IMG/VR virus record: IMGVR_UViG_3300029267_003703
Span: 21,448-85,447 of that record
Length of the DNA: 64,000 nt
Strand: one strand, 5' to 3'
Source of the DNA: a virus
Position numbers and translations under genes: made by a program. Of this stretch, positions 18,801 through 64,000 are shown in pieces (positions within the stretch are counted from its first letter, which is position 1; every line of letters starts with the position of its first letter). The notes under the pieces were generated by a model. The model did no database searches and was not told the DNA's origin. It saw only the letters and a program-made list of their open reading frames with translations.

Positions 18801-18952
18801 GGGTTGGAGCGCGTAGCGTATACTTCGACGAAGGTGAGATCTGGGGGCTGGACTACAACCAGTTTGTAGCCCCATTGATCAAGTCAGTACAAGAACTATC
18901 CACGATGGTGAAAGAGCTTCAAGCAGAGGTGGCTCTGCTGAAAGGAACGTGA
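15899..18952 (+). CDS. tail fibre / receptor-binding protein with YadA-head-like repeats and peptidase S74 intramolecular chaperone
   Basis: N-x-A-I-G-Y-x-A repeats; C-terminal SDVSLKQDI...GLIAQEV...LDYNQFVAPLIKSVQEL followed by a coiled coil. Confidence 0.9.
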   Translation: MALERAITINNSTGGSPIGAFATINDGDTLLVAEGIQSTQTDITITPNSGQVKLVGNAPVINSGYSGADQDVTLWFVRGTGANVGIRWGQTGTQTMEITNDGTNWYSIATAGSSLIGYTEAAANYSTALGSGTAAAGAHANSVLVGFEAGAALTGADNVIIGYRAGKAMTTGINSVIIGSGAAALTAGSAEDNVIIGKGAFAANTGTSDQNIIIGSGAAANYSSSNGHNIVVGYQAGAGLDTESYCTIIGYQAGATVGGGNAIAIGYQAGYQIGSYSVAIGDQALYAATATNNDVVAIGRQAGRNSNGYGTVYIGQYAGRNANGGYNVGIGYTALEMSGASYAGFNVGIGYRTLAILSSGDRNVALGYQAMDVSTSASNSVAIGNSALGSNTTYSGNVAIGSNAMSGANGGTENVAVGAYAGASITTSYGVAVGSYAAYNRTSFLNGVALGRQAGSGGSGSDCVYIGERTGESVTGDNNVAIGYNSQRYARTGTSSNNISIGYESLRSNTTSAANDNIAFGYRALYSTVATGNIALGRMAGYSNTTDNYQVYIGWGAGLDSNFNCEGNVGVGYHALYNVRGIGSGGCGRNTAVGYQSLEALTINTTDTQAISNTAIGYQSGLNIGDAADYNTALGAEAIGSGALTANNNTAVGFQSLYNVTGGGNTAVGTASGDSITSGENNVCVGYNADVSASTDTNEIAIGYAVTGKGSNTTVLGNTSVTDTYVRGNLRVGNESTAAKYLYFQNSTGATQPGFRWSGSAVEWSNDGTSWYTFAAGGTSLTGYTQSASPYGTALGSGTASSGAALNMTLLGYQAGASLTTNGDDNTLLGFQAGSSITSGYQNVCVGSNTAVNATASLQVAVGYNARVTTSQPGSMQFGNGTNTYASRTAQFGDAFYQYILYANSYQSYSDVSLKQDIESLSSDEGLSLIQKLRPVSFRMKTGTTEYEKRKRFGLIAQEVKLAVEEAGVGARSVYFDEGEIWGLDYNQFVAPLIKSVQELSTMVKELQAEVALLKGT

Positions 18953-48171: not shown

Positions 48172-48686
48172 CCTCCCCCCTCACCTCCTCCGTGCCGCGT
48201 GAACGGGGCGTTGGAGATGAAGTGTGCCAGGGACATCAGGGCCCCTACAGCAGCGCCTCTGCCCATGGTCAACGCAGCGTTGCGGAAGCTGAACTGCTCC
48301 ATCGGCTCTAAGGTCGCGAGCATGGACGGAACGGTATACCAGTTCGACGGGACCATCTCCACCGGGTTCATCTGGATGACCTCGTGGCCGACGGGGACGC
48401 CTCTTGTTACAGGAGTAGCGGAATTTTGGGGGGTAGAGAGAAACGCCGGACGCTTCACCGACGTGGACAGCGCCGCCGGCGGTGTGCCTCGGGTCAGGTT
48501 CGTGACCGGGACTTGGAATGATTGGGACACTTTCCTCGCTGACTTCTGCGCCCCGCACGATTGGAAGTAGTCGCACACGGGTCTGATGTTCGATCCTCCT
48601 GTGCTCATGTAGTTCGGATCGTATCCGCCCCTGCACTCAACAGCCTGAGCGGACCACAAGTTGCCGAAACAGTCCGGCTTGCCCAT
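48168..48686 (-). CDS. hypothetical protein with N-terminal Cys4 motif
   Basis: PDCFG...EC...CDYFQSC; AAAGGAG SD; first gene of the replication operon. Confidence 0.7.
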   Translation of the reverse strand: MGKPDCFGNLWSAQAVECRGGYDPNYMSTGGSNIRPVCDYFQSCGAQKSARKVSQSFQVPVTNLTRGTPPAALSTSVKRPAFLSTPQNSATPVTRGVPVGHEVIQMNPVEMVPSNWYTVPSMLATLEPMEQFSFRNAALTMGRGAAVGALMSLAHFISNAPFTRHGGGEGGG

Positions 48687-48724: not shown

Positions 48725-48778
48725 CTTATGACCGCTCTCGGGCTATCCTTGCGCGGGCCTCTGCGCCATTGCTAGGAT
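48725..48778. promoter_or_regulatory. back-to-back divergent promoter pair (candidate)
   Basis: GTCATAAG on - (48725-48732); TTGCGC-N18-TAGGAT with TG extension on + (48749-48778). Confidence 0.55.
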
Positions 48779-51042: not shown

Positions 51043-52066
51043 GTTCGACGAGAACACCATGCGCGGCTTCATCGAGGAGATGGAGAAGCAGGCTCTCACA
51101 GGAAACCAGGTGCTCGGGCTGGCCACGGGCACCGGCGCGGCGCTCGGAGGTCTTTGGCAGGGGGGCAAGGCGTACCGAGAGGCCAAGCAGCAAGGTGCCA
51201 GCACTTCGGAGGCGTTGCAGCAGGCGGGCAAGAAGGGCCTGATTGGTGCGGGCGCCGGTGCGGCGATTGGTGGGGGACTTGGGGGCATCAGCAAGCTGCG
51301 TAAGGGCAAGGGGCTGTTCACCATGCCCAAGTCCTCCCCCATCATGGGGGGCCAGGTCATCGACCCCGGCAAGTCGCTCGCTGAGTTCGGCGGGCATGTC
51401 GGGCACATCTGGACGGGCAAGGGCAACGTTCGCAGTTTCGGCGGGGGAGCCGTGCCCGCCATAAAGGCGGAGTCTGAAGCGGCCAAGGCACTGGAGAAGG
51501 TCCGACAGGCCCCGGTGGGCGAGGTGAAGGATCCTCGGTTCCTATCCTCCATTCGAGGAAAGATCTCTCCCGCTGAGACCAAGCGGCTGGCTGAGGAGAA
51601 GGCTCAGAAAGCGCTGACAGCAGCTCAGGCCAGGGCCAAGGCAATGGAGCGGGCGGAGAAGGCAGGTCTCACCAGCATCCCAGGCACCCTCACCGGTATT
51701 GCGCGGGACCCTCGAGGAACTGCCGGCGCGTTCGGTGACTACATTCGGACCATGAGCGGGGGAGAAAAGGCATTCGCTCTTGGCTTCCCTGCTGCCTTTG
51801 CCGGCATGGGGGCGCTGGCTCCGGAGGAGGGGCAGAGCAGGCTCGGCGGAGCTCTGTCAGGCGCGGCATCGAGCGTGCCGTGGATGATGCCGTGGATGCC
51901 CAAGAGCTTCGCCATGACCATGCTGCCCGGGTCCTCGTCCATCATGCCTCAGATGGCCCTTGGCCGCCCCTTGGAGATGGCGGGCAGCGCTGCCGGTAAC
52001 GCAGCGACCTCGGGATACCGTCGGGTCGCCGGCGCGGTTCAGCCGCCGGAGGAACAGGGTAGATGA
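51035..52066 (+). CDS. Gly/Ala-rich basic protein with hydrophobic segments and EMEKQA leader; probable internal (ejected) virion protein
   Basis: Acidic 20-aa leader ending KQA, then glycine-zipper helices. Confidence 0.55.
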   Translation: MPEFDENTMRGFIEEMEKQALTGNQVLGLATGTGAALGGLWQGGKAYREAKQQGASTSEALQQAGKKGLIGAGAGAAIGGGLGGISKLRKGKGLFTMPKSSPIMGGQVIDPGKSLAEFGGHVGHIWTGKGNVRSFGGGAVPAIKAESEAAKALEKVRQAPVGEVKDPRFLSSIRGKISPAETKRLAEEKAQKALTAAQARAKAMERAEKAGLTSIPGTLTGIARDPRGTAGAFGDYIRTMSGGEKAFALGFPAAFAGMGALAPEEGQSRLGGALSGAASSVPWMMPWMPKSFAMTMLPGSSSIMPQMALGRPLEMAGSAAGNAATSGYRRVAGAVQPPEEQGR

Positions 52067-54090
52067 GCTTCTTTTCAGGAGGACTGCAGGGGGTGGCCAC
52101 GGGGCCCGGTTCGGGGCTGCGCTTTGCGTCTACCCGAGGTCGGATTCAGGGCAGCCCGTCGAACGGGATGAACTACCCGAGCCCGTTCTTCGACATCGGG
52201 CACACGTACCTGCCGGTCACGGTCAAGGCGCTGCTCCGCTGGTGCCGGTACTACTTCATGACGAACCCGCTGCTCAATGCGGGCACGTTCAAGATGGCCG
52301 AGTATCCGGTGACCGACCTGCTCATCGAGCACGAGAACCCCTCGGTGCAGAAGCGGTGGTCAGAGTACTTCCACGAGCACTTCATGTACCCGGCCTTCCA
52401 GATCGAGGTGGGCCTGGACTACTTCACGTACGGCAACGCGTTCATCACGATCTACTACCCCGTGCGCAAGTGGCTCAAGTGCAGGCAGTGCGGCCATCAG
52501 GACCACGAGGCGGACCTTCGGTCGAACTACATCTTCACCAACTTCGAGTTCCGCCTGACGTGCCCGCGCTGTGGGCACGTGGGGACCGCTGACGTCAAGC
52601 AGCAGTACCTCAAGAACGCCAGCGAGATCCGACTCGTTCGGTGGAACCCCGAGGATGTGGAGATCGACGTCAACGACATCACCGGCGCCGTCGACTACTA
52701 CTACATCATCCCGCCGATGATGAAGAACGACATCACGGTGGGCAAGAAGAGTGTGGTCGGGGAGATCCCGCAGATCTTCATCCAGGCTGTGCGAGAGAAC
52801 AAGGGCGTGAAGTTCGCGCCCGACAACTTCTTCCACCTCAAGCGGCCGAGCCTCGCCAACCTAGACCGGGGTTGGGGCACTCCGCTGCTTCTGCCCGTGC
52901 TCAAGGACGCCTACTACCTGCAGATCATGAAGAAGGCGCAGGAGGCGATCCTGCTCGAGCACATCATCCCGCTGCGCATCCTGTTTCCGCAGGCCGGCAG
53001 CGCGAGCTCGGACCCGTACACGACGATCAACCTCACTCAGTGGCGGGAGCACGTCGCCGGCGAGATCGCTCGGTGGAGGTACGACCCGAACTACATTCCC
53101 GTCATGCCGCTGCCCGTGGGGCACCAAACGCTGGGCGGTGACGGCCGGGCCCTGTTGCTGTCCGGTGAGATCCAGCAGTGGAGTGACCACTTGGTGGTCG
53201 GCATGGGCGTCCCGCGGGAGTTCATCTTCGGTGGCATGAGCTACGCTGGCACCAACGTGTCGATGCGGATGCTCGAGAACGCGTTCCTTCGATACATCAG
53301 CCGGCACTTGGCGCTGTCGAAGTTCGTGATGAAGTCCGTGTCCAAGTACATGGATTGGCCCGAGGCCACGTGCAAGTTCAAGCCCTTCAAGATGGCCGAC
53401 GACCTCCAGCGCAAGATGTTCCTGCTCAACGTCAACGCGCAGGGCAAGATCAGCGACACTTCCTTCCTGGCCGAGTGCGACTACGACCAGTCGGAAGAGA
53501 ACAAGATCATGCTGCGCGAGAACAAGGAGCGCCTCGAGGCCCTCAAGGACCAGCAGGTTGCGCAGGCCGAGGCGCAGGGCGAGGCCATGCTCGTCAACGC
53601 TAAGTACCAAGCGAAGATGCAGCAGGTCATGATGCAGGCACAGCAGGCGCCCGTCGCCCCGGGCGAGCCGGGCGGCCCCGAGCAACAGATGCAGGGCGGA
53701 GGTCCTGGCGGGCAAGGAGCCATGGGCGAACCAATCCCCGGGGGCCAGCCCGCCGAACAGGCGCAGCCCCAAGCGCAGCAGGCCGAGCAGGGCTACTTCC
53801 AGCAGCAGGTCGGCAGCCCGCTCAACATGGGCCAGGACATGCAGTCGAACCAGATGATGAACATCGATCTGCCATCGATGGCGATGCAGCAGGCCCGCAT
53901 GATCACCCAGCTCCCGCCCGAACAACAGCAGACCGCCATCCAGAACCTCGAGCAGCAGTCCCCCGAGCTCGCCGAGCTCGTGCGCCAGTACCTCACCCAA
54001 CTCCAGCCGCAAAGCGGAGGCGGGGGCGTCGACATGCGCCCGCAACCCAACGTGTACCCGGAACGGCGCGAGACGCCGATGGTGACTTAG
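52063..54090 (+). CDS. portal protein with zinc-finger insertion and Gln-rich tail
   Basis: YFTYGNAF, FFHLKR...GWGTPLLLPVL and GMGVPREFIFG portal-like motifs. Confidence 0.7.
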   Translation: MSFFSGGLQGVATGPGSGLRFASTRGRIQGSPSNGMNYPSPFFDIGHTYLPVTVKALLRWCRYYFMTNPLLNAGTFKMAEYPVTDLLIEHENPSVQKRWSEYFHEHFMYPAFQIEVGLDYFTYGNAFITIYYPVRKWLKCRQCGHQDHEADLRSNYIFTNFEFRLTCPRCGHVGTADVKQQYLKNASEIRLVRWNPEDVEIDVNDITGAVDYYYIIPPMMKNDITVGKKSVVGEIPQIFIQAVRENKGVKFAPDNFFHLKRPSLANLDRGWGTPLLLPVLKDAYYLQIMKKAQEAILLEHIIPLRILFPQAGSASSDPYTTINLTQWREHVAGEIARWRYDPNYIPVMPLPVGHQTLGGDGRALLLSGEIQQWSDHLVVGMGVPREFIFGGMSYAGTNVSMRMLENAFLRYISRHLALSKFVMKSVSKYMDWPEATCKFKPFKMADDLQRKMFLLNVNAQGKISDTSFLAECDYDQSEENKIMLRENKERLEALKDQQVAQAEAQGEAMLVNAKYQAKMQQVMMQAQQAPVAPGEPGGPEQQMQGGGPGGQGAMGEPIPGGQPAEQAQPQAQQAEQGYFQQQVGSPLNMGQDMQSNQMMNIDLPSMAMQQARMITQLPPEQQQTAIQNLEQQSPELAELVRQYLTQLQPQSGGGGVDMRPQPNVYPERRETPMVT

Positions 54091-54095
54091 GGGGT

Positions 54096-54123
54096 AAAAA
54101 ACGACGCCCCCCGAATGGGGGGC
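54096..54123 (-). terminator. probable terminator for the converging - strand cluster
   Basis: GCCCCCC-GAAT-GGGGGGC hairpin; on - strand followed by GTCG-TTTTTT. Confidence 0.6.
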
Positions 54124-54199
54124 CCTGCTCCGTCCGGCCCGTCGACTTCGACGTTCAACCCGGACTCACCCCTGAGCGGGGGCGCCGTGTGGTGCAGGC

Positions 54200-54511
54200 T
54201 CAGAACCAACCGTTGTCGGTCTCTGCCTGCACCTTCGCGAGCGTGGCCAGCGCCACCCCAATGCGGCGCCATGCGTTGAGGATCTCCTCCTCAGCACCGG
54301 CGCCCTGGGCGAGCGCAAGCCCCTCTGCAGCGCGGTGAGCGGCGAGCTCGTACTGCTCGGCCGCGTACCGCGCGTCAAGCTCGAGAAGCACGGCGACGCT
54401 CGCGTCGTCCTGCTGCTCCAAGAGCTTGAGGGCCCTGTTATAGGCCCTTCCGCAGAGGTTGCCCGCAACACGGCCGTTTCGGCTTTCGCCGCGGTCGTTG
54501 CGTGCCATCAC
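54200..54511 (-). CDS. hypothetical protein
   Basis: 103-aa helical ORF in the - strand cluster. Confidence 0.55.
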   Translation of the reverse strand: MMARNDRGESRNGRVAGNLCGRAYNRALKLLEQQDDASVAVLLELDARYAAEQYELAAHRAAEGLALAQGAGAEEEILNAWRRIGVALATLAKVQAETDNGWF

Positions 54512-54533
54512 TACTATTGTACCTTCTTTCTGC

Positions 54534-55160
54534 TTACTTTTGCGTCCACAGATCCATTACCTGTTCGGCCATCAGAGCCATGCAGCTCAGGCACATCAGC
54601 TCCATGGACTCTTCTTCGTCGAAGTGCCCGCCCATGTCGCTAGAAGGAGTTCGGCCGTCCGGGGGAAGCGGCTCCATGGTTCCGTAGACGGCGCGGATCA
54701 TGGGCTCACCGTCCACGGGTCTTTTGCAGAAGTCGCAGAAGATGGGAACGTCCGGATCCTCTATCTCTTGCGGGTCTGCGGGCTGAAGCCCTAGCTCCTT
54801 CCTCACCTCCTGTATGGCGAACTGGAGCTCGTCGACCAGGCTGCTCCACACGTCGAACGGAAGCATCTCCTCCAAGACCTCCCATTCGTCTTCTCCAACG
54901 TCATCCTCCATACCGTCGATCAGGTCGTATGGCTCCTGGTTGGAGACGATGAAGGAGGGGACCATCGGCTCGTCCCCGTTCATCCAGTACTCGCACATGA
55001 TCGTCAGATCGAGGTCCACGTACGGGATGACCCCGTCGAGTCGGACCACTTCCCAGCCGAGCGGGATGTCCCTGTCCGATCCTCTGCAGATGTGGCCGGA
55101 CGGCACGGGGCTCAGAACAAGGCTTGGGTCTCGGTACCTGTCGGGGAAGGTCATCGCCAT
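54534..55160 (-). CDS. acidic hypothetical protein with C-terminal Cys pairs
   Basis: GGAG SD before MAMTFP; CDFC...CLSC. Confidence 0.65.
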   Translation of the reverse strand: MAMTFPDRYRDPSLVLSPVPSGHICRGSDRDIPLGWEVVRLDGVIPYVDLDLTIMCEYWMNGDEPMVPSFIVSNQEPYDLIDGMEDDVGEDEWEVLEEMLPFDVWSSLVDELQFAIQEVRKELGLQPADPQEIEDPDVPIFCDFCKRPVDGEPMIRAVYGTMEPLPPDGRTPSSDMGGHFDEEESMELMCLSCMALMAEQVMDLWTQK

Positions 55161-55750
55161 TGTATCTTCTCCAGTTGGACTCGGGCCCAGCGCTTGTTGA
55201 CGGTCTCGAGTCGCGGGTCGGGGGACATCCCGGTCTCCAGGTCCGCGTCCCACATGAGCGTGAGCAGCTCCTCGTAGTCGAGGCCGTTGATGTGCAGGTG
55301 GCGGGTGATCTCCATGCCTTCAGGCAAGGGCATGCCGCCGTACTCCTCGCGGGCGCCCCACTCCAGGCGGAGCAGGTCGTCCTGCAGGTCGTCGGGTTCG
55401 GCGGTGATGCCGACCCAGTTGAAGTCGTCTTGGGGTAGGTAGGGGGAACCCAACCAGTGGCACCACTGGCCTGGCTGCGCGATCTCCATCAGCACCTCGA
55501 GGTCCCGCTGGTTGCAGAACGACGTGATGCCGAAGTTGTCGATCAGCCAGGCCCGCACGCCTCCCAGAGCCCTTCCGGATGGGAGGTAAAAACCAACGAT
55601 CTCCCACACCCGGTTGAGGTACTCGACCTTTTCGCCGATGGCGTCGAACATGGGAGCCGTGGTCGGGTCGCCGGGCACGAGTTCGATTAGCCTCGTACCC
55701 GGCAACGCCACTGGTGGGCTCGCATACACGTTCGCGAGCCCTCCGTTCAT
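55151..55750 (-). CDS. hypothetical protein
   Basis: TGATG coupling; acidic, 199 aa. Confidence 0.65.
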   Translation of the reverse strand: MNGGLANVYASPPVALPGTRLIELVPGDPTTAPMFDAIGEKVEYLNRVWEIVGFYLPSGRALGGVRAWLIDNFGITSFCNQRDLEVLMEIAQPGQWCHWLGSPYLPQDDFNWVGITAEPDDLQDDLLRLEWGAREEYGGMPLPEGMEITRHLHINGLDYEELLTLMWDADLETGMSPDPRLETVNKRWARVQLEKIQWR

Positions 55751-55911
55751 CAGTCGTCGTCTCCTTCCTCGTCCTGGTCGTCGTCCTCGTGCCAGGCTGA
55801 TTTTTTAGGGTCGAAGCCGGCCTCCTTGATGTCCTCCTCCCGCTCTCCGAAGAGAGAGGTGAAGGACTCCTGCGCGATTCGGGCCATGTCATTCAGCTTG
55901 CTGGTGGACAT
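55750..55911 (-). CDS. small acidic protein
   Basis: AAGGAG SD before MSTSKLND. Confidence 0.6.
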   Translation of the reverse strand: MSTSKLNDMARIAQESFTSLFGEREEDIKEAGFDPKKSAWHEDDDQDEEGDDD

Positions 55912-55979
55912 CTCAATCTCCTTGTCGGAGGGCCACCTCCTGACCCTCCGGTTAGAGGGGAAGGGCGCGTACTTCGTCC

Positions 55980-56043
55980 CTTCAAGGCTCTTATGCCTGC
56001 GATCACGCACTCCTTGCCGCCGCTTCAGCCTGCGCGGTACAGT
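55980..56043. promoter_or_regulatory. back-to-back divergent promoter pair (candidate)
   Basis: GGCATAAGAGCCTTGAAG on -; TTGCCG-N18-TACAGT on + upstream of the RNAP gene; same spacing as 48725-48778. Confidence 0.55.
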
Positions 56044-56068
56044 TGCGAGCAGTCCAGAGAGGAACAGG

Positions 56069-59000
56069 ATGGCGTACCTCGACCCGCAGGAAGCCTTCGA
56101 CCACTTCCAGAAGAAAGTAGTTGAGGGAGTAGAGCAACAGTTCCCGGTGAAGGGAAAGCAGCGCAGCCTTCACCTGGAGCGTGTGGAAGTTCCGGAGCCC
56201 CCTAGCCCGGACGACATCAAAGCGCAGCAGCAGGCGAAGATCGACGGCAAGAGCTGGGGCGTGCCCGTGTACGCCCATCTGACCCTCAAGGACAACGCCA
56301 CCGGCAAGATCGTGGACAAGCGCAAGGTGCGCGTCGCCGAAGTCCCGATGATGACGAAGCGCTACAGCTACATCGTCGGCGGGCAGGAGTACCAAGTCGA
56401 CAGCCAGTGGCAGCTCAAGCCGGGGGCGTACACCCGCCGCAAGCAGAACCAGCAGCTCGAGACGCAGTTCAACACGACGGGCCCCGGTTCCAAAACGTTC
56501 CACTTGAACTTCCACCCCGACAAGAAGCAGTTCACGGTACGGTGGAACAAGGCGGATATCCCGGCGTACCCGATCCTCAAGACGCTTGGGGTCACTGACG
56601 AGCAGCTCAAGAAGTCCTGGGGTGAGGACATCCTCGACGCCAACAAGAACGCCCGCGGAGTGGACGGGGCGCTCGCCGCGCTGTACCGCTCGGATCGGGG
56701 GCGCAACCCTGAGAACATCGAGCAGGCCAAAGAGCATCTGTGGGACACACTCCAAGCGTCGAAGATGGACAAGAGTGCCACGCACATGACGCTCGGTCGT
56801 CCCTTCGAGCATGTGAATGGCGACGCGCTGCACATCGCGTCCAAGCGCCTGCTCGACGTGCAGCGAGGCGGCGGCGAGGATGATCGTGACAGCCTGGTGT
56901 TCAAGAGGCTCCGTACGGCTGGCGACTTCGCCCTCGACAAGATGAACAGCCAGAAGTGGGCCGTGCAGAACAAGATGGCCAAGAAGCTCGACACGGCGCA
57001 GAGCGTGCGCGACGTCGTGAAGTTCGAGCACTTGAACACGGCGGTCCACAAGACCTTCAGCGAGAATCAGGCGTCGCGCGTTGCCAGCCAGATCAATCCG
57101 CTCGAGATGGTCAGCTCCTCGATGCAGACCACGGTCATGGGACCGGGCGGCATCCAATCCGAGCACGCCGTCATCGACCAGACGAAGTGGATCAACCCTT
57201 CGCAGTTCGGCTTCCTCGACCCGATCAACACCCCCGAGGGCCCGAAGACCGGCGTCACCCTGCGGCTGCCCATGGGCGTGCGCAAGAAGGGGGACGAGCC
57301 CCGCATCGCCTTGACGAACATGCAGACGGGCAAGACCGAGTTCGTCTCCCCGGGCCGAGCCATGCAGGAGAACGTGCTGCTGCCTGACCAGGTCGAGTGG
57401 AAGGATGGCAAGCCAAACCCGATCAATGGCAAGAAGTCGAAGATCTTGGGGCCGGGCAACGAGCTCCAGGTGGGCGACGCCAGCAAGGCGAAGTACGTCA
57501 TGCGGCACCCCACGCAGGTGTTCAACATCACCTCGAACATGATCCCGTATCTGCATTCGACGCAGGGTAACCGTGCAGGCATGGCTTCTCGCCACCTCGA
57601 ACAGGCGGTGAGCCTCGAAGGAAGGCAGGCCCCTCTGGTGCAGGTAGCCACGGGCGCGGGCAAGGGCCCGTACGACACGTTCGAGGGAATGGTCGGGGCC
57701 ATGTCGGGGCACCAGTCCCCCATCGACGGGACGGTGGAGAAGGTCACCAAGGATGGCATCCACATCAGGGGCAAGGACGGGGTCAAGCACACCGTTCAGC
57801 TGTACAACCACTACCCGCTCAACGACGTGAAGAGCACCATGCACTCCGAGCCGCTGGTCAAGCCCGGCGACGTGGTGAAGAAGGGGCAGCACATCGGGGA
57901 CACGAACTTCACGAAGGACGGCAAGCTGGCCCTCGGCACCAACCTGCGAGTCGCGTACGCCCCGCTCAAGGGCTACAACTTCGAGGACGGCGTGGTCATC
58001 AGCGAGTCCGCGGCGAAGGCCATGAGCTCGGTGCACATGACGAAGCACTCGTTGGCGGTCGAGCCGGACATGAACTTCGACCCCAAGAGGTTCCGTGCGT
58101 TGCACGCCGGTACCTACAAGACCGAACAGCTCGATAAGGTGGGGGAGGATGGCGTGGTCGCCGTTGGTACCCGGGTCAAGCCCGGTGACCCCCTCGTGCT
58201 CGCCACGCAGCCCTTCAAGATCAAGGATCGAACGGGCATCGGCGCGTGGAAGAAGAACATGTCGGGCGTGCATACCGACAAGAGCGTGAAGTGGGACGGT
58301 GACTACGAGGGAGAGGTCGTTGGCGTGCACCGTAAGGGCAAGAGCGTGCAGGTACACGTGCGCACAGTCGAGCCCATGCAGGTGGGCGACAAGCTCAGCG
58401 GCCGGTACGGCAACAAGGGCATCGTCACCAAGATCCTCGACAACAGCCAGATGCCGCGCACCAAGGACGGCAGCCACGTCGAGGTGATGCTCAACCCGGC
58501 AGGCATCCCCGGGCGCATCAACCCGTCGCAGGTCTTCGAGACCGTGGCGGCGAAGGTGGCCGACAAGACGGGCAAGCCCATCGTCGTGCAGAACTTCAAG
58601 CCTCACGTGGACCAGCTGCAAGAGATCAAGAACTTGGCCAAGGCGCACGGGGTGAGCGACACCGAGGAGCTGTACGACCCAGAGACCAACCAGAGCCTCG
58701 GGCAGATCCTCACCGGCAAGCAGTACATGCTCAAGTTGGTGCACCAAGTAGAGAAGAAGGGCGCGGTGCGCTCTGGCATGTCGCTGCCCGGCACGGACCC
58801 GGAGTCGTACGACCGCAACCTGCAACCCACGGGCGGCGGGCATCACGGCGGGCAGAGCATGGGCTCTCTTGGCATGTACGCCATGCTGGCCCACGGGGCC
58901 AAGGCCAACATCCGAGAGATGCAGACGTACAAGAGCGAGGGCCCAGACCCCGCGCCGGCGGAGGCCAAGAAGTGGAAGAGTCAGCACAACGAGGTGTGGC

Positions 59001-62000
59001 AAGCCATCCAGAACGGCTCCCCTCTTCCCCCTCCGAAGCCCTCGTTCGCCTTCTCGAAGTTCAACGACTACCTGAAGGCGTCGGGCGTCAACATGGAGAA
59101 GAACGGGCATCGGTTCGTGCTGACGCCGATGACCGACAAGCAGATCAGGGACATGAGCGCCGGCAAGCTGCCGAAGCCGGACCGCAAGCTCAGCTACAAG
59201 CTCGACAAGGACGGCAACCCTATGCCCGTGAAGGGTGGGCTGTTTGACGAGCGCATCACCGGCGGGCACGACGGCAAAAACTGGTCGCACATCGAGCTCG
59301 CTGAGCCCATCCCGAACCCCGTGTTCGAGGCCCCCGTACGCGCGCTCACCGGGCTGACGCAGAAGCAGTTCAACGATGTCATGGCCGGCCGCGCCGGCGT
59401 CACCCCTGGCGGCGCCTTCACGGACAACCCCCGAGCAGGGCTGACTGGCGGGCACGCCATCAAGAGCATGCTCAAGAAGGTGGACGTGCAGGCTGACCTC
59501 GAGCGCGCCAAGGCCGAGCTCAAGAGCACGCCCAAGACCAAGGTCGACGCCACGCTCAAGAAGGTCAAGTACCTCGAGGCGCTCAATCGGACTGGGCACA
59601 CGGCTGAGGAGGCGTACATCCTGCACAACCTGCCCGTCATTCCTCCGAAGCTGCGCCCCGTCTCCATCCTTCCGGACGGCAGCCTCAACGAGGCGGACTT
59701 GAACGGGTTGTACTCGGACTTCGGCCAGCTCAACGCGCAGATGGGTGACCCCGTCATTCGCAACAAGCTGCCGGAGGAGCGTAAGGCAAACCTGCGGGGC
59801 GCTTACTACGACGGCGTCAAGGCGCTCATGGGCATCGGCATTGCCCACAAGGACCAGAAGCAGAAGGGCCTGCTCAACCAGATCCACGGCCCTGAGCCGA
59901 AGAAGGGGTTCTTCCAGAAGACGCTGATGAATCGCCGGCAGGACCTGACGATGCGCTCGACCATCGTGCCCGAGCCCTCCCTGGGCTTGGATGAGGTGGG
60001 CATCCCAGAGCACTACGCCATGGACCTGTTCCGTCCCTTCGTCGTCAAGCAGCTGGTGCAGTCCGGGTCGGCTAAGTTCGACCTCGACGCGCACAAGATG
60101 ATCAAGGCGAACGATCCTCTCGCGAAGAAAGCACTCGAGCGGGTGATGGACGACAAGCCGGTGCTACTCAAGCGCGACCCTGCGCTGCACAAGTACAACG
60201 TGCAGGGCTTCAAACCGCGGCTCGTCGAGGGCAAGGCCATCAAGATCCACCCCCTGACGTGCTCGGGCTACAACGCGGACTTCGACGGCGACACCATGAG
60301 CGTGTACGTGCCCATCTCTCGGGAAGCCGAGGCTGAGGCGCACAAGATGATGCCCTCGAACAACCTGTTCAGCGACTCGACGGGTAAGGTGATGTACCAG
60401 CCGACGCACGAGTCCGCGCTCGGTCTGTACAAGCTCACGCGCGTCGACAAGAAGACGAACAAGACCTTCGCAAACCCGGGTGACGCCATCAAGGCCGCGC
60501 AGGCCGGCAAGATCGGGGTGACGGATCTGGTCAGCATCAAGGGTACTGGGCAGACGACGGCGGGGCGCCTTCTGGTGGCCGCCGCGCTTCCGCAGGACAT
60601 GCAGAAGCAGATCGTCAACGACCACAAGTTCGTGCTCGACAAGAAGGGCCTCAACACGATGCTCACGACGCTCGCCAAGCAGAGCGGAGGACTTCAGGAG
60701 GGGCAGCGCAACACGTACGGCCAGTACGTCGACAGGCTCAAGGATCTGGGCAACGGCGCCGCGTCGGGCATGGCCCCCGTTTACTTCGACAAGTCCCCGG
60801 GCAACAACGTGCTCGACCCCAAGAAGCAGCAGTTCGTTCGCATGGACGCGCACACGCTCAACCTGAACGACCTGTCGCCTGACAAGGCCACGCGCGACCG
60901 CATCCTTGCTGACACGCAGAAGAAGGTGGATGCAGTCGGCAAGATGAGCCTCTCGCAGGCCGAGAAGGATCGGCGTGCGGTCGATCTGTGGACGCAGGCC
61001 GACAAGACGATGGGCATGGCCCACAAGCGCAAGATGATGCAGAAGCCTAACAACCTCGGCATCATGAACATGAGCGGCGGCAAGCCGAACTGGGACCAGT
61101 ACAAGCAGTTCACCCTGGCTCCGATGCTCGTAACCGACACCTCAGGCAAGACCGTGCCCATTCCCGTCGACAAGAGCTTCAGCGAGGGGCAGGACGTCTC
61201 GGGCTACTGGGTCGGCATGTACGGAGCTCGCATGGGCGCCGTGCGCAAGGTGCAGGAGGTGCAGGAGCCAGGCGTCATCACCAAGGCCATGCAGAACACC
61301 ACGATGGACAACCTCATCGTGGACCACGACTGCGGGACGACTGGAGGAGTGTCGCTCAACGTCCACGACCGCTCCATCGAGGGCCGGCACCTTGCCAGCG
61401 ACTTCAAGCACGGCAAGTTGCACGTGCCGGCGGGTACCGTGCTGAGCCCCGACATCATTGGGCAGATCCGCTCTGTGAAGAAGGACGCGAATCTCGTCGT
61501 GCGCAGCCCGCTCAAGTGCCAGCACGAAAAGGGCATGTGCCAGAAGTGCATGGGCATCGGCCCCGACGGCAAACACTATGAGGTGGGCACGAACGTGGGC
61601 GTCATGGCGGCGCACTCGCTGGGGGAGAAGACGACGCAGATGATGCTCAACTCCTTCCACACCGGCGGCGTGGCCACGGGCCGCAAGGACCCGTTCGAGC
61701 AGTTCAAGCAGCTGGTGAACCTGCCGGAGAAGGTACCGAACGAAGCGACCCTCGCCGTGCGTTCGGGCACCATCACCAAGGTCGAGCCCCACAAGCTGGG
61801 GGCGTACGTGTACATCGATGGGCAGCCCCACTTCGTCGGCCGTGACCGTGGGGGCAAACCGCTGAACGAGTCGCTTCCGGTCCCCGGCTTCAGCTACGTG
61901 CCTTGGCAGCCGCCGAAGGCAGGGATGAAAGTCAAGGCGGGGCAGATCCTGAGCGACCCCAACCGCACGACGATCAACCCTCACCACCTTCATCAGGCCA

Positions 62001-62479
62001 CGGGCAAGATCGACGTCGTGCGCAACCACCTGTCCAACGAGATCTACGGGCTGTACAAGGACCACGGCGTGGACCGCAAGCACGTGGACGTGCTCGTGAA
62101 CTCCATGACGTCGACGACGAAGGTTGTGGACCCGGGCGGCTCCGACGTGCTGCGCGGCGAGTACCGCAACACCAACTGGGTCAAGAACCAGAACAAGCTG
62201 CTTCGGGCTCAGGGCCAGCCCACCGTGCAGCATGCTCCGATCCTCAAGGGGATCAACGAGATGCCCCTGCACATGCGCGAGGACTGGATGGCCAAGCTCC
62301 AGCACCAGAAGCTCAAGCAGACCATCCTCGAGGCCGCGGCCACTGGCGGGTCCACCAGCCTGCATGGCCCGCACCCCGTGCCGGGCATGGCCTACGGCGC
62401 CGAGTTCGGCATGACCTCCAAGGACGCGCTGCGCCCGGGCAAGTCCCACCTCAAAGACGTCGAACCCTACCACTACTGA
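56069..62479 (+). CDS. single-chain fused beta-beta' DNA-directed RNA polymerase (2136 aa)
   Basis: Beta motifs: TPEGPKTG, GYNFEDG, GDKLSGRYGNKG, NPAGIPGRIN, YMLKLVH. Beta' motifs in the same frame: LPVIPPKLRP, LLKRDPALH, YNADFDGD (60269-60292), RSPLKC..CQKC, SFHTGG. AGAGGA SD before ATG 56069. Confidence 0.97.
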   Translation: MAYLDPQEAFDHFQKKVVEGVEQQFPVKGKQRSLHLERVEVPEPPSPDDIKAQQQAKIDGKSWGVPVYAHLTLKDNATGKIVDKRKVRVAEVPMMTKRYSYIVGGQEYQVDSQWQLKPGAYTRRKQNQQLETQFNTTGPGSKTFHLNFHPDKKQFTVRWNKADIPAYPILKTLGVTDEQLKKSWGEDILDANKNARGVDGALAALYRSDRGRNPENIEQAKEHLWDTLQASKMDKSATHMTLGRPFEHVNGDALHIASKRLLDVQRGGGEDDRDSLVFKRLRTAGDFALDKMNSQKWAVQNKMAKKLDTAQSVRDVVKFEHLNTAVHKTFSENQASRVASQINPLEMVSSSMQTTVMGPGGIQSEHAVIDQTKWINPSQFGFLDPINTPEGPKTGVTLRLPMGVRKKGDEPRIALTNMQTGKTEFVSPGRAMQENVLLPDQVEWKDGKPNPINGKKSKILGPGNELQVGDASKAKYVMRHPTQVFNITSNMIPYLHSTQGNRAGMASRHLEQAVSLEGRQAPLVQVATGAGKGPYDTFEGMVGAMSGHQSPIDGTVEKVTKDGIHIRGKDGVKHTVQLYNHYPLNDVKSTMHSEPLVKPGDVVKKGQHIGDTNFTKDGKLALGTNLRVAYAPLKGYNFEDGVVISESAAKAMSSVHMTKHSLAVEPDMNFDPKRFRALHAGTYKTEQLDKVGEDGVVAVGTRVKPGDPLVLATQPFKIKDRTGIGAWKKNMSGVHTDKSVKWDGDYEGEVVGVHRKGKSVQVHVRTVEPMQVGDKLSGRYGNKGIVTKILDNSQMPRTKDGSHVEVMLNPAGIPGRINPSQVFETVAAKVADKTGKPIVVQNFKPHVDQLQEIKNLAKAHGVSDTEELYDPETNQSLGQILTGKQYMLKLVHQVEKKGAVRSGMSLPGTDPESYDRNLQPTGGGHHGGQSMGSLGMYAMLAHGAKANIREMQTYKSEGPDPAPAEAKKWKSQHNEVWQAIQNGSPLPPPKPSFAFSKFNDYLKASGVNMEKNGHRFVLTPMTDKQIRDMSAGKLPKPDRKLSYKLDKDGNPMPVKGGLFDERITGGHDGKNWSHIELAEPIPNPVFEAPVRALTGLTQKQFNDVMAGRAGVTPGGAFTDNPRAGLTGGHAIKSMLKKVDVQADLERAKAELKSTPKTKVDATLKKVKYLEALNRTGHTAEEAYILHNLPVIPPKLRPVSILPDGSLNEADLNGLYSDFGQLNAQMGDPVIRNKLPEERKANLRGAYYDGVKALMGIGIAHKDQKQKGLLNQIHGPEPKKGFFQKTLMNRRQDLTMRSTIVPEPSLGLDEVGIPEHYAMDLFRPFVVKQLVQSGSAKFDLDAHKMIKANDPLAKKALERVMDDKPVLLKRDPALHKYNVQGFKPRLVEGKAIKIHPLTCSGYNADFDGDTMSVYVPISREAEAEAHKMMPSNNLFSDSTGKVMYQPTHESALGLYKLTRVDKKTNKTFANPGDAIKAAQAGKIGVTDLVSIKGTGQTTAGRLLVAAALPQDMQKQIVNDHKFVLDKKGLNTMLTTLAKQSGGLQEGQRNTYGQYVDRLKDLGNGAASGMAPVYFDKSPGNNVLDPKKQQFVRMDAHTLNLNDLSPDKATRDRILADTQKKVDAVGKMSLSQAEKDRRAVDLWTQADKTMGMAHKRKMMQKPNNLGIMNMSGGKPNWDQYKQFTLAPMLVTDTSGKTVPIPVDKSFSEGQDVSGYWVGMYGARMGAVRKVQEVQEPGVITKAMQNTTMDNLIVDHDCGTTGGVSLNVHDRSIEGRHLASDFKHGKLHVPAGTVLSPDIIGQIRSVKKDANLVVRSPLKCQHEKGMCQKCMGIGPDGKHYEVGTNVGVMAAHSLGEKTTQMMLNSFHTGGVATGRKDPFEQFKQLVNLPEKVPNEATLAVRSGTITKVEPHKLGAYVYIDGQPHFVGRDRGGKPLNESLPVPGFSYVPWQPPKAGMKVKAGQILSDPNRTTINPHHLHQATGKIDVVRNHLSNEIYGLYKDHGVDRKHVDVLVNSMTSTTKVVDPGGSDVLRGEYRNTNWVKNQNKLLRAQGQPTVQHAPILKGINEMPLHMREDWMAKLQHQKLKQTILEAAATGGSTSLHGPHPVPGMAYGAEFGMTSKDALRPGKSHLKDVEPYHY

Positions 62480-62536
62480 TCCTTCAGACTCCTCCTGTTG
62501 CTACGCAACACTGGCTCTTTTTCTGTCAGAAGAGGA

Positions 62537-62616
62537 TTGAAGTACAGTCGATATTCCCTGACGTTTGACGTGACACGTTAGAGCTCAGGCGAAAACTATC
62601 GACTCTTTTACTTCAA
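62537..62616. repeat. 80-nt imperfect inverted repeat in an AT-rich intergenic region
   Basis: Nested arms TTGAAGTA/TACTTCAA, AGTCGATA/TATCGACT, CCTGA/TCAGG and TGACGT/ACGTTA. Confidence 0.75.
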
Positions 62617-62638
62617 GTTTTACACTTTAGGAGGTAAC

Positions 62639-63229
62639 ATGCCCGTCAAGAAGTGGGTGCTCACCGTCGTCAGAGACGGGGAGAAGACCAAGACCAAAGT
62701 AGAAGAGAAGATGGTCGTCATGGACCAGACCCACGCGGTCGTCCTCAGTCGAGGCGGCAGCACTGGTACGGTCGTCAAGAAGGAGAGAGTCTTTGACGAT
62801 GCGAAGTCGGCGCGCATCGCCGCGGCACGAGGCGGCAAGCCTTGTTGGGTATTCGTGGTGACCCGGGAGCACGTCCGCGGGCTCTCCGACAAACCCGAGC
62901 GACCCGAGGTCTTTTACGCCTACGTCTATCCGGCCCCGTTCGGTGGTTGGACCGTGCAGCGGGTCAACGAGAAGAAGGAGCCACTCGGCCGGCCCATCAC
63001 CGTGTACCACATCTCGAGGCACACCCGGGAGAGCGCGGCCCTCAAGGAGATGGCCAGGTGGGTGGCCATGACCCGCCCCGAGCTTCGCAAGTCCCGCAAG
63101 CTGCTCGAGCTGGAGGAGAAGTACATGGACGAGGTCGTCCGGTCCCTTCGCCGCAAGAAGGTCAAGATTCCCAAGCCCGAGAAGACCAAGGGAGTTCGCT
63201 GGCGCCCGCGCGCAAGGAGGACCCGGTAA
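62639..63229 (+). CDS. basic hypothetical protein
   Basis: TAGGAGGT SD; first gene after the hairpin. Confidence 0.75.
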   Translation: MPVKKWVLTVVRDGEKTKTKVEEKMVVMDQTHAVVLSRGGSTGTVVKKERVFDDAKSARIAAARGGKPCWVFVVTREHVRGLSDKPERPEVFYAYVYPAPFGGWTVQRVNEKKEPLGRPITVYHISRHTRESAALKEMARWVAMTRPELRKSRKLLELEEKYMDEVVRSLRRKKVKIPKPEKTKGVRWRPRARRTR

Positions 63230-63504
63230 TGCCCGGCTACACCATCATCACCTGTGATGAGGACGGCATCCGGATCGAGCCGAACGTCCCCGAACAGGAG
63301 GTCCTCAAGCGGGTGACCCCGGACGAGGACGGATGCACTTACTATGGCGACGCCATCTTCTACAAGGAGATGCCGAGAGCATCTGACGGCTTCTTCCAGG
63401 ACCGTGAGCTCGGCGAAAGGACGGGAGTCTGCATCCTGCGCGGCGCCCAGGTCGTCACTCCCGTGGCCGAGGAGGTCGTCACCAAGTACAGATTGGAGGG
63501 CTAG
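63229..63504 (+). CDS. hypothetical protein
   Basis: TAATG coupling and AGGAGG SD; MPGYTII start. Confidence 0.7.
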   Translation: MPGYTIITCDEDGIRIEPNVPEQEVLKRVTPDEDGCTYYGDAIFYKEMPRASDGFFQDRELGERTGVCILRGAQVVTPVAEEVVTKYRLEG

Positions 63505-63792
63505 ATGAAGAAGATGCTCGTGCTGGCGGTTCTTCTTACCGCCTGTTGCCCAAGTAGAAGGTATCCGGACGACGTCCGCAACGAGTTCCTCGTCGAGTGC
63601 GCGCAGGACGACATCCCCGTACGGCCGTGCATCTGCGTGCTCGAGGGGTTCGAGAAGCGCTACACGCTCGAGGAGTTCCGGACCATCTCCGTGGGGATGA
63701 AGAAGGGCGCGCCGATGCCCAAGGAGATGGGAGCCATCGTCGATCGGTGCGCCCTCGAGGAGAGAGAACATGACAAGGAAAAGAAGAGGTAA
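63505..63792 (+). CDS. putative lipoprotein
   Basis: MKKMLVLAVLLTA-C lipobox; F..EC.......C.C...............C pattern. Confidence 0.7.
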   Translation: MKKMLVLAVLLTACCPSRRYPDDVRNEFLVECAQDDIPVRPCICVLEGFEKRYTLEEFRTISVGMKKGAPMPKEMGAIVDRCALEEREHDKEKKR

Positions 63793-64000
63793 GCTCGTAG
63801 GGTCTGCGGCGTACGGGCGGTGGGGCAAGAAGTTCAAGAAGATCTTGGCCGAGAGAGGGCTGACCGCTCGGAACGTGTCGGTTGCTTTGGGGCTGGCGCG
63901 CCATACCGTCGGGGCCTGGTTGCTGGGGCGCCAGGGCATCTCTTGGGAGTCGTACATGCAGGTCGTTGAGTGGGAACCCCGGCTTCGTTCTGATGAGCTG
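63770..64000 (+). CDS. Xre/Cro-type helix-turn-helix protein (3'-partial)
   Basis: Translated by hand: FKKILAERGLTARNVSVALGLARHTVGAWLLG; GAGGAG SD. Confidence 0.7.
   Translation, partial: MTRKRRGKLVGSAAYGRWGKKFKKILAERGLTARNVSVALGLARHTVGAWLLGRQGISWESYMQVVEWEPRLRSDEL

What the first reader, a model, noticed from the sequence alone, without database searches (positions are those of the whole stretch)
56069..62479. Single-polypeptide, reduced bacterial-type beta-beta' RNA polymerase in a phage
Seen: all core beta motifs followed in frame by all core beta' motifs. The beta C-terminus (YLKASGVNME) joins the beta' N-terminus (FVLTPMTDKQIRDMSAG) through about 5 residues near 59095-59115. The total is 2136 aa, against about 2750 aa for E. 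coli beta plus beta'. Known: phiKZ/AR9 RNAPs are split into several subunits and crAss-like virion RNAPs are very divergent, whereas this one aligns by eye to RpoB/RpoC. Bacterial rpoBC fusions (Helicobacter, Wolbachia) are full-size. No alpha, omega or sigma gene lies in the window. Inference: a phage-domesticated enzyme in which fusion may replace alpha-dependent assembly.
Basis: partly seen in the sequence, partly recalled or inferred. Interest (0 to 1): 0.9.

Follow-up and report, generated by a model that had tools for sequence, protein, structure and literature searches.

The report
Single-chain phage RNA polymerase
An uncultured phage of roughly 185 kb encodes both large subunits of a bacterial-type RNA polymerase as one intact 2136-residue protein, a layout shared by a very large and barely described phage family that also carries its own sigma factor and probably brings the enzyme into the host cell.

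Summary
Window 56069-62479 (+) is one open frame of 2136 aa. It has beta domains, a ~5-residue linker (aa 1011-1015, nt 59099-59113), then beta' domains.

It is neither an artefact nor a bacterial gene:
- The junction stretch is identical, with no indel, in contigs of three runs. A variant run differs at 28 sites, 26 of them third codon positions.
- All 120 listed homologues and all 150 listed 50%-cluster representatives are of this kind.
- In my tree the family lies outside 14 bacterial rows.

- The window is the last 64 kb of an 85-kb fragment, about 46% complete. A sigma70-family gene lies 11.8 kb before the window.
- Alpha and omega are absent from 5 of 5 related records.
- The size reduction is modest.
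- The clade is in print (mReC, 2020). In Salmonella phage Arash the homologous enzyme and sigma were found in virions (PMC10585845).

I found no printed description of the fusion itself. This scan has already found the same family on other DNA at least six times.

Best reading: an alpha-less single-chain core that works with the phage sigma and is probably packaged.

The parts
56069..62479 (+). Complete fused beta-beta' RNA polymerase gene (2136 aa plus stop)
56069..59098 (+). Beta moiety (aa 1-1010). It includes the beta double-psi barrel with the invariant GRYGNKG lysines (K775, K783).
58226..58273 (+). Flap-tip region (aa 720-735, DRTGIGAWKKNMSGVH). It aligns to the bacterial flap-tip helix. 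The family consensus is L-x-A-I-x-K-x-L.
   Evidence: the role in sigma region 4 binding is recalled, not tested
59099..59113 (+). Linker KNGHR (aa 1011-1015) between the last beta strand and the first beta' strand
   Evidence: In the AF2 segment model the junction is helix, strand, strand, helix with block pLDDT 60-86.
59114..62476 (+). Beta' moiety (aa 1016-2136)
59258..59287 (+). Site of the missing beta' N-terminal Zn-binding domain. A short TGGHDGKNWS loop without cysteines replaces it, here and in every family member aligned.
59702..59809 (+). Clamp-helix (coiled-coil) region, aa 1212-1247. It is aligned to bacterial beta'. N1212, Y1215 and R1243 are invariant in the family.
60272..60292 (+). 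Catalytic NADFDGD loop (aa 1402-1408). D1404, D1406 and D1408 are invariant.
61331..61549 (+). Second (C-terminal) Zn site, kept: C1755, C1817, C1824, C1827
55990..56017 (-). Promoter-like bipartite motif GCAA-N19-ATAAG. It faces away from the RNAP gene. Its GCAA is the complement of the TTGC that looks like a -35 for the RNAP gene.
   Evidence: the same arrangement occurs in G001
48725..48752 (-). Second exact copy of the motif, 39 nt before gene 48168-48686(-). The orthologous gene of G001 carries it at the same distance.
62505..62532 (+). Variant of the motif (GCAA-N19-AGAAG) downstream of the RNAP stop, 107 nt before gene 62639-63229
52063..54090 (+). Portal homologue (675 aa; 31% identity to Arash portal Gp204, E 8e-90). 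The portal-RNAP neighbourhood is as in Arash.

Best explanation
The gene encodes the catalytic core of a phage RNA polymerase of bacterial type, with beta and beta' joined by a five-residue linker into one 2136-aa chain. The catalytic motifs and the Zn2 cysteines are read directly from the sequence. The lid, rudder, clamp-helix, flap-tip and trigger-loop elements are placed only by alignment to solved bacterial chains. The beta' N-terminal Zn-binding domain is lost (shown).

The phage has no alpha or omega gene (shown for complete relatives). The covalent link probably takes over the job of holding the two large subunits together (inferred).

Promoter recognition is most likely supplied by the phage's own sigma70-family protein. 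That gene lies 11.8 kb before the window and is conserved wherever the enzyme is (presence shown; partnership inferred). The likely targets are bipartite promoters of the form GCAA-N19-(G)ATAAG, found in front of the sigma gene and of clusters of small genes (motif shown; its reader inferred).

By analogy with Salmonella phage Arash, the polymerase and this sigma are probably packed into the capsid and injected. This would start phage transcription without the host enzyme (inferred from a homologue at 31-34% identity).
For: Intact and conserved fusion:
- Of the 120 homologues listed, 102 are 2119-2163 aa with 99-100% coverage. The other 18 are longer and mostly intein-bearing.
- All 120 carry both Rpb2_6 and Rpb1_2.
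- All 150 listed 50%-identity representatives are of this family.

Purifying selection across the junction: 26 of 28 differences in run X5 are at third codon positions, with no indel.

Catalytic residues: D1404, D1406, D1408, K775 and K783 are invariant in 14 sequences.

Position in the tree: in a 37-row tree the 14 bacterial rows form one side (SH-aLRT 100). The 19 family rows form another (100, stem 0.53).

Alpha and omega: alpha (PF01000, PF01193) and omega (PF01192) are found in 0 of 5 records at E<=1, while each rings in 14 of 14 control genomes.

Sigma:
- Sigma70_r3 is over its cut-off in 5 of 5 records.
- PHROG 351 'RNA polymerase sigma factor' matches.
- For the AF2 model of the sigma, all 50 top PDB matches listed are sigma70-family chains, probability 1.00.
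- The complete relative G001 has only one RNAP gene and one detectable sigma.

Arash virion LC-MS (PMC10585845, passages read): Gp206 is the most detected protein (3516 spectra), Gp216 has 1210 and sigma Gp10 has 467. Gp10 is the orthologue of the contig's sigma. Portal-RNAP synteny is shared with Arash.

Motif:
- In G001 there are 45 matches against a shuffle mean of 8.9 (maximum 16). Eighteen of them fall in the 9.3% of the genome that is intergenic.
- Of 18 intergenic ATAAG sites, 13 have GCAA or TCAA at fixed spacing.
- The motif stands before the sigma gene in both phages.
Against: - No experiment or RNA data bears on this phage.
- Virion packaging rests on one relative at 31-34% identity. 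The Arash authors themselves allow that abundant proteins may be carried over.
- The phage sigma could serve the host polymerase instead, as phage sigmas do in phages without their own enzyme.
- In the contig's sigma, only region 3 passes Pfam's cut-off. Region 4 scores 19.3 bits against a 24.1 cut-off, and region 2 is not detected.
- The sigma model is moderate (pLDDT 74.5; TM 0.2-0.3 because of domain placement).
- The Zn-binding domain is gone and the clamp-helix residues differ from bacterial ones, so sigma docking cannot be assumed.
- In the window itself the exact motif occurs only twice (expected 0.33; 5 of 100 shuffles reach 2).
- The promoter of the RNAP gene itself is unresolved.
- The 1200-aa AF2 model is mediocre (pLDDT 65.9, with the catalytic stretch under 50).
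- Host alpha could still bind.
Confidence: 0.6

Rival explanations
1. The enzyme is not packaged. It is made after infection and acts as a middle or late polymerase with the phage sigma, as in a T7-like relay. Early genes are read by the host polymerase.
For: The Arash authors note that abundant enzymes may simply co-purify with particles. In both G000 and G001, a weak sigma70-like pair (TTGCCG-N18-TACAGT; TTGCTC-N18-TAACTT) stands before the RNAP gene. No capsid-targeting signal was identified in the protein.
Against: Gp206 is the single most detected protein in Arash particles, ahead of the major capsid protein, and its sigma has 100% coverage. The gene sits beside the portal gene in both phages. 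The TTGC is explained by the opposite-strand motif. The strict sigma70 scan finds 0 sites in 54000-64000.
Confidence: 0.25
2. The single chain is not self-sufficient. It recruits the host's alpha dimer, omega, and/or a host sigma to become active.
For: The beta and beta' parts align to bacterial subunits almost end to end, so alpha-contact surfaces may persist. No phage alpha exists.
Against: The enzyme shares only 24-36% identity with any bacterial subunit. The family spans phages binned with many different phyla, which argues against dependence on one host's subunits. A dedicated phage sigma is conserved. Other phage multisubunit enzymes work without alpha (PMC7598289, passages read).
Confidence: 0.13
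3. The fusion is an assembly or frame artefact, or a bacterial rpoBC captured in a chimeric contig.
For: None found.
Against: The sequence is identical, without indels, in contigs of three runs at depth 17-25. Hundreds of homologues share the same junction. The flanks are phage genes. The family sits outside the bacterial rows.
Confidence: 0.01

Closest known systems
RNA polymerase of Salmonella phage Arash (Gp206 + Gp216, with sigma Gp10; OQ632216.1; PMC10585845) and of Vibrio phages D69/D148/D181
   Same: Closest isolates, at 31-34% identity. They share the same beta to beta' junction, the same loss of the Zn-binding domain, the portal gene next to the enzyme, an orthologous sigma, and no alpha or omega.
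   Different: In those phages beta' is cut after about aa 1490 of this protein. They have a 1525-1527-aa beta+beta'N protein and a separate beta'C of about 606-609 aa. Here everything is one chain. D69 nests inside fully fused forms in my tree, so their split looks secondary. They also have a second sigma with a clear region 2, which I did not find in G000 or G001. The Arash paper calls Gp206 'subunit beta' and does not mention a fusion in the passages I read.
mReC, multisubunit-RNAP-encoding Caudovirales (Weinheimer & Aylward 2020, PMC7481178)
   Same: These are metagenomic tailed phages whose beta and beta' are recognisable with cellular-type models. They branch as a clade apart from Bacteria. 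My tree gives the same picture.
   Different: The main text treats beta and beta' as two subunits and uses 'fused' only for crAssphage. Sigma, loss of the Zn domain and virion presence are not discussed in the parts I read. I could not check whether this contig is among their 97, because supplements are closed.
phiKZ/AR9-type multisubunit RNAPs of jumbo phages
   Same: Phage-encoded two-barrel enzymes without alpha and omega. One set is virion-borne (PMC7598289, PMC7824862, passages read).
   Different: In those phages beta and beta' are each split into several polypeptides, there are two enzyme sets, and no sigma homologue by sequence. They are also very divergent. Here there is one chain, one gene, a sigma70-family partner, and strong similarity to bacterial subunits.
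Bacterial rpoB-rpoC fusions (Helicobacter, Wolbachia)
   Same: Beta's C-terminus is joined to beta' s N-terminus in one reading frame (recalled; not tested here).
   Different: Those are full-size housekeeping enzymes of cells that also have alpha, omega and host sigmas. This one is a phage gene, lacks the Zn-binding domain, and lies outside the bacterial rows.
crAss-like virion RNAP and YonO-type single-chain two-barrel RNAPs
   Same: Both barrels lie in a single polypeptide, and the enzyme is phage-encoded (as described in PMC7481178 and PMC7824862).
   Different: Those have no sequence similarity to beta/beta' models that is easily detected. This protein matches Pfam Rpb2_6 at 4e-53 and bacterial beta' at 1e-98.

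Membership tests
Bacterial-type two-barrel RNAP large subunits (beta + beta') | Beta barrel with the conserved lysines, and beta' barrel with NADFDGD | tested here: met
   Rpb2_6 at 4e-53 and Rpb1_2 at 7e-31. K775, K783, D1404, D1406 and D1408 are invariant in 14 sequences.
Bacterial-type two-barrel RNAP large subunits (beta + beta') | Near full-length colinear alignment to solved bacterial beta and beta' | tested here: met
   Beta aligns at aa 56-958 to residues 71-1014 of 1100. Beta' aligns at aa 13-57 and 118-1092 to Thermus beta'. All 50 listed Foldseek matches of the segment model are beta' chains.
Bacterial-type two-barrel RNAP large subunits (beta + beta') | Beta' N-terminal Zn-binding domain (four Cys) | tested here: not met
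   There are no cysteines between GGLFDE and HIELAEP, here or in the 20 relatives aligned.
Bacterial core enzyme alpha2-beta-beta'-omega | Alpha and omega subunits encoded with the enzyme | tested here: not met
   PF01000, PF01193 and PF01192 are found in 0 of 5 records at E<=1, while each rings in 14 of 14 controls. Use of host alpha is not testable here.
mReC (Weinheimer & Aylward 2020) | Beta and beta' detectable with cellular models, on a contig with tailed-phage hallmark genes | tested here: met
mReC (Weinheimer & Aylward 2020) | RNAP clade separate from cellular lineages | tested here: met
   Quick ML tree with 14 bacterial rows from about 10 phyla, SH-aLRT 100 on both sides. Sampling is limited and no archaea or eukaryotes were included.
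mReC (Weinheimer & Aylward 2020) | Major capsid protein of Pfam family Gp23 (PF07068) | tested here: inconclusive
   0 of 5 records matched, but the tool warned that nothing rang anywhere, controls included.
mReC (Weinheimer & Aylward 2020) | Being one of, or clustering with, the 97 published contigs | not testable with these tools
Arash-type virion RNAP | Homology to Gp206, portal-adjacent position, and an orthologue of sigma Gp10 | tested here: met
   33.7% identity over 1562 aligned positions. Portal E 8e-90. Sigma E 3e-16 and 4e-15.
Arash-type virion RNAP | Beta' split into beta'N (fused to beta) and a separate beta'C gene | tested here: not met
   One uninterrupted 2136-aa frame, against two genes in Arash and D69.
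Arash-type virion RNAP | Presence of the enzyme and sigma in virions | not testable with these tools
   Known only for Arash.
phiKZ/AR9-type phage multisubunit RNAP | Beta and beta' each split into several polypeptides; two enzyme sets; no sigma homologue | tested here: not met
   One chain. One RNAP gene in the complete relative. A sigma70-family gene is present.
Sigma70 family (the partner gene, G000:8738-9607) | Regions 2, 3 and 4 in order | tested here: inconclusive
   Region 3 scores 37.0 bits (cut-off 25.3). Region 4 scores 19.3 (cut-off 24.1). Region 2 is not detected by Pfam. The fold matches whole sigma factors over 225-347 columns in all 50 listed matches, but with TM 0.2-0.3.

The most novel reading that the evidence does not exclude
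The phage carries in its capsid a two-polypeptide holoenzyme: a single-chain beta-beta' core plus a packaged sigma70-family factor. The holoenzyme needs no alpha, omega or host protein. It is injected with the DNA and starts transcription at GCAA-N19-ATAAG promoters. It would be the first sigma-dependent RNA polymerase known to work without alpha, the first virion polymerase of plainly bacterial type, and the smallest natural sigma-dependent transcription machine.
Probability: 0.4. Interest if true: 0.8.

Novelty: new variant of a known kind. Interest (0 to 1): 0.55.

Why it matters
All cellular multisubunit RNA polymerases use an alpha-like platform to assemble the two large subunits. A natural enzyme still close enough to bacterial beta and beta' to align end to end, yet fused, alpha-less and paired with its own sigma, would allow two direct tests. 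First, whether a covalent link can replace the assembly platform. Second, which bacterial elements sigma really needs, given that the Zn-binding domain is gone. If the enzyme is packaged, it defines a third kind of virion polymerase beside the N4 and phiKZ types. The family is very large in sediment, seawater, wetland and other metagenomes, yet almost unstudied. Two groups of isolates (Arash, and Vibrio D69-like phages) make it experimentally accessible.

Tried and rejected
Tried without result, or rejected:
- Strict sigma70 promoter scan of 54000-64000: 0 sites.
- Sigma70_r2 in G000, G001 and G002: no match. The Arash and D69 region-2 sigma has no homologue in G000 or G001 (best E 0.36).
- PF07068 capsid test: uninformative, because the controls were silent.
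- Expression: no RNA holder was listed among sequencing runs, so nothing can be said about it.
- The 1200-aa AF2 segment model is only moderate (pLDDT 65.9, pTM 0.46). Its catalytic stretch and aa 890-992 are below 50. I use it only for the fold class and the junction's secondary structure.
- I first read TTGCCG-N18-TACAGT as a host-type promoter of the RNAP gene. One search showed that the TTGC is the complement of the opposite-strand GCAA, so I leave the RNAP gene's promoter open.

Literature: searches found no paper that describes the beta-beta' fusion in this clade. What I read:
- PMC7481178: parts 1-2 of the text, plus term searches.
- PMC7824862, PMC13282480, PMC11835377, PMC12153180, PMC7598289 and PMC10585845: passages found by term search only.
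- The supplements of PMC7481178 and PMC10585845, which may list fused proteins, could not be seen.

Rows left out of the tree:
- All intein-bearing family members.
- Arash, whose beta'C was incomplete in my locus.
- L049.
- The short fused forms L095-L120.
- Bacterial genomes for which the fetched stretch lacked beta or held only part of beta': Actinomycetota L156, Chloroflexota L157, Alphaproteobacteria L160, the cyanobacterium and the Rhodobacterales MAG.

Full report
WHAT IS THERE

The window has 62% G+C throughout. An open frame runs from 55826 to 62479 on the + strand. Read from the ATG at 56069, it gives 2136 residues without a stop. A purine-rich stretch precedes this ATG. The orthologue in a complete relative starts with nearly the same residues.

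Pfam finds beta domains (Rpb2_3, Rpb2_6) followed by beta' domains (Rpb1_1, _2, _3, _5) in the same frame; Rpb1_1 and Rpb1_3 score below their curated cut-offs. Against solved structures, the best matches are bacterial beta' chains of many phyla at nearly equal scores. These run from Thermus at 334 bits to E. coli at 294 bits. The beta part matches bacterial beta almost end to end.

The beta' part begins at the canonical beta' N-terminus, residue 13 of the Thermus chain. The junction is therefore a five-residue linker, KNGHR (aa 1011-1015, nt 59099-59113).

IS IT REAL?

Contigs of three public runs (sediment and seawater metagenomes, possibly the source samples) carry window 58600-59600 with no difference and no indel, at depth 17-25. 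A fourth run holds a variant with 28 substitutions. By my count, 26 of these are at third codon positions of this frame, on both sides of the junction.

A word-indexed search found 1170 proteins at E<=1e-10:
- All 120 listed carry both Rpb2_6 and Rpb1_2.
- 102 of them are 2119-2163 aa with 99-100% coverage at 51-86% identity.
- The other 18 are 2422-2897 aa, mostly with an intein-type LAGLIDADG domain.

An exhaustive search with residues 560-1759 returned 150 listed representatives of 50%-identity clusters:
- All are of this family (38-57% identity, E<=1e-204).
- 133 of them are at least 1987 aa.
- In all but one (P0218), the best stretch spans the junction.

An alignment of 19 members plus Arash and D69 shows the junction in the same register everywhere. 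The fusion is old and under selection.

WHERE IT SITS

The window is the last 64 kb of an 85,447-bp viral contig that CheckV rates 46% complete. The exact protein also occurs on a 177.7-kb contig.

Neighbouring genes are those of a phage:
- baseplate wedge, tail spike, DNA polymerase, DnaB-like helicase, primase, UvsX-like recombinase and Cas4-like nuclease;
- a homologue of the Arash portal protein at 52063-54090.

A relative with 53% identical RNAP, G001, is 184,953 bp and 100% complete by CheckV. It has a terminal direct repeat of about 160 bp and is syntenic with this contig.

RELATIVES AMONG ISOLATES

The closest phage records are Vibrio phages D69, D181 and D148 (about 187 kb) and Salmonella phage Arash (181 kb), at 31-34% identity. 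In these phages, beta plus the N-terminal half of beta' form one protein of 1525-1527 aa. The C-terminal half of beta' is a separate gene. They share the same beta to beta' junction and the same missing Zn domain.

In my tree, D69 nests among fully fused forms. The cut in beta' therefore looks secondary.

PHYLOGENY

I collected the cells' own rpoB and rpoC from genomes of about ten phyla. These were reached through MAGs into which such phage contigs had been binned, and through other hits. I then built a quick maximum-likelihood tree of 37 rows on 2007 columns:
- The 14 bacterial rows form one side of a branch (SH-aLRT 100).
- The 19 rows of the phage family form another (100, stem length 0.53).
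- The window's protein is nearest to P0004 (65% identity).

It agrees with the published placement of mReC polymerases (PMC7481178). The limits are a quick search under LG+G4, no archaeal or eukaryotic rows, and several rows left out (listed under Tried and rejected).

WHAT IS KEPT AND WHAT IS LOST

Kept:
- The catalytic NADFDGD, with all three aspartates invariant, and the beta lysines.
- The region aligned to lid, clamp helices and rudder, with N1212, Y1215 and R1243 invariant in the family.
- A stretch aligned to the flap-tip helix.
- The second Zn site.
- A trigger loop without a lineage-specific insertion.

Lost: the beta' N-terminal Zn-binding domain, replaced by a ten-residue loop without cysteines in every member aligned.

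In size, the enzyme is 22% smaller than E. coli beta plus beta'. It is only about 6-11% smaller than the insertion-poor solved enzymes (chain lengths). 'Reduced' is therefore true but modest.

A 1200-aa AF2 model of residues 560-1759 has mean pLDDT 65.9. It places a helix, two strands and a helix across the junction. All 50 of its listed PDB matches are bacterial beta' chains.

PARTNERS

Alpha (two Pfam families) and omega are absent from this contig and from G001, G002, Arash and D69. That is 0 of 5 records at E<=1, while each family rings in 14 of 14 control genomes.

Sigma is a different matter:
- A 289-aa gene at G000:8738-9607, 11.8 kb before the window, matches Sigma70_r3 above its cut-off and PHROG 351 'RNA polymerase sigma factor'.
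- Orthologues exist in 5 of 5 records. These include Arash Gp10.
- Its AF2 model (pLDDT 74.5) matches only sigma70-family chains among the 50 listed PDB matches, over 225-347 columns.
- The complete relative has one RNAP gene and one detectable sigma.
- Arash and D69 have a second sigma with a clear region 2 that I did not find in G000 or G001.

VIRION EVIDENCE BY HOMOLOGY

The Arash paper (PMC10585845; passages read) reports LC-MS of purified particles:
- Gp206, the beta+beta'N protein, is the most detected protein (3516 spectra).
- Gp216 (beta'C) has 1210 spectra.
- Sigma Gp10 has 467 spectra with 100% coverage.

The authors suggest a role in early transcription, or carry-over of abundant proteins. 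They do not mention a fusion in the passages I read.

PROMOTER-LIKE MOTIF

I followed a first-stage note on a GKCAKAAG motif. In G001 the pentamer ATAAG occurs 34 times, 18 of them intergenic. Thirteen of those 18 have GCAA or TCAA about 19 nt upstream.

The pattern [GT]CAA-N18-20-A[TG]AAG gives these counts:
- It occurs 45 times, against a shuffle mean of 8.9 (maximum 16).
- Eighteen of the matches fall in the 9.3% of the genome that is intergenic.
- Most end 18-40 nt before a start codon, in front of clusters of small genes and of the sigma gene.

In this contig it stands before the sigma gene, at window 48725-48752(-) and at 55990-56017(-). A variant lies at 62505-62532(+). Orthologous genes carry it in both phages.

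A two-part element with this spacing fits recognition by a sigma70-type factor. Which polymerase reads it is not shown. The exact pattern in the window alone is weak statistically: 2 found, 0.33 expected, and 5 of 100 shuffles reach 2.

The TTGC that looks like a -35 for the RNAP gene is the complement of the opposite-strand GCAA. The RNAP gene's own promoter therefore stays open.

VERDICT

Three points correct it:
- It is one of a very large family.
- It has a sigma partner encoded on the same contig.
- The clade (mReC) and the virion presence of the Arash homologue are already in print.

I found no printed description of the fusion, of the Zn-domain loss, or of the sigma pairing. Supplements could not be seen.

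This scan has already reported the same family on other DNA at least six times, with the same reading. I reached mine before seeing those notes.

Noticed in passing
L096 (Fervidobacterium thailandense chromosome NZ_CP140110.1, about 193.9-198.5 kb); L112, L117, L120 (Poribacteria chromosomes); L074, L080, L082, L086 (MAG contigs): Other single-ORF beta-beta' proteins of 1024-2306 aa occur in bacterial chromosomes and MAGs, in addition to the cells' own rpoB and rpoC. They carry Pfam Rpb2_3 and Rpb2_6 followed by Rpb1_2 (plus Rpb1_5 in some). In the tree, L074/L080, L082 and L086 lie between the bacteria and the phage family. Their nature (prophage, mobile element) is unknown.
   Followed up: partly
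relatives P0006-P0013, P0038, P0044, P0054 and others: Many family members are 2400-4700 aa. They carry LAGLIDADG-type (PF14528) insertions and match the query in 2-5 separate stretches, so inteins are common in this polymerase. Vibrio phages D181 and D148 have a homing endonuclease gene inside the RNAP region.
   Followed up: no
G000:8714-9607 (before the window); window 48725-48752(-), 55990-56017(-), 62505-62532(+); G001 at 18 intergenic sites: A bipartite promoter-like motif, GCAA-N19-(G)ATAAG(A), is strongly enriched in intergenic DNA of the complete relative. It is conserved before orthologous genes, including the sigma gene.
   Followed up: partly
window 52063-54090 (+): The 675-aa protein had no PHROG match. 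It is nevertheless a homologue of the Arash portal protein Gp204 (31% identity, E 8e-90).
   Followed up: yes
window 15899-18952 (+): The tail-spike or tail-fibre gene (PHROG 4636, 6002) lies in the only stretch of lower G+C (0.58-0.59, against 0.61-0.65 elsewhere). It has no homologue in G001. This suggests an exchanged host-recognition module.
   Followed up: no
G001 (IMGVR_UViG_3300032893_000001), both ends: IMG/VR classes the record as linear. Yet its last 30 bases recur at position 130 and its first 30 at 184,793, which indicates a terminal direct repeat of about 160 bp and a complete genome.
   Followed up: partly
L041-L049, L071, L072: Phage contigs of 50-204 kb with this polymerase are binned into MAGs labelled Myxococcales, Desulfatibacillum, Anaerolineales, Leptolyngbyaceae, Dependentiae, Bacteroidales, Rhodobacterales and even an archaeon. 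These labels cannot be taken as hosts without further evidence.
   Followed up: no
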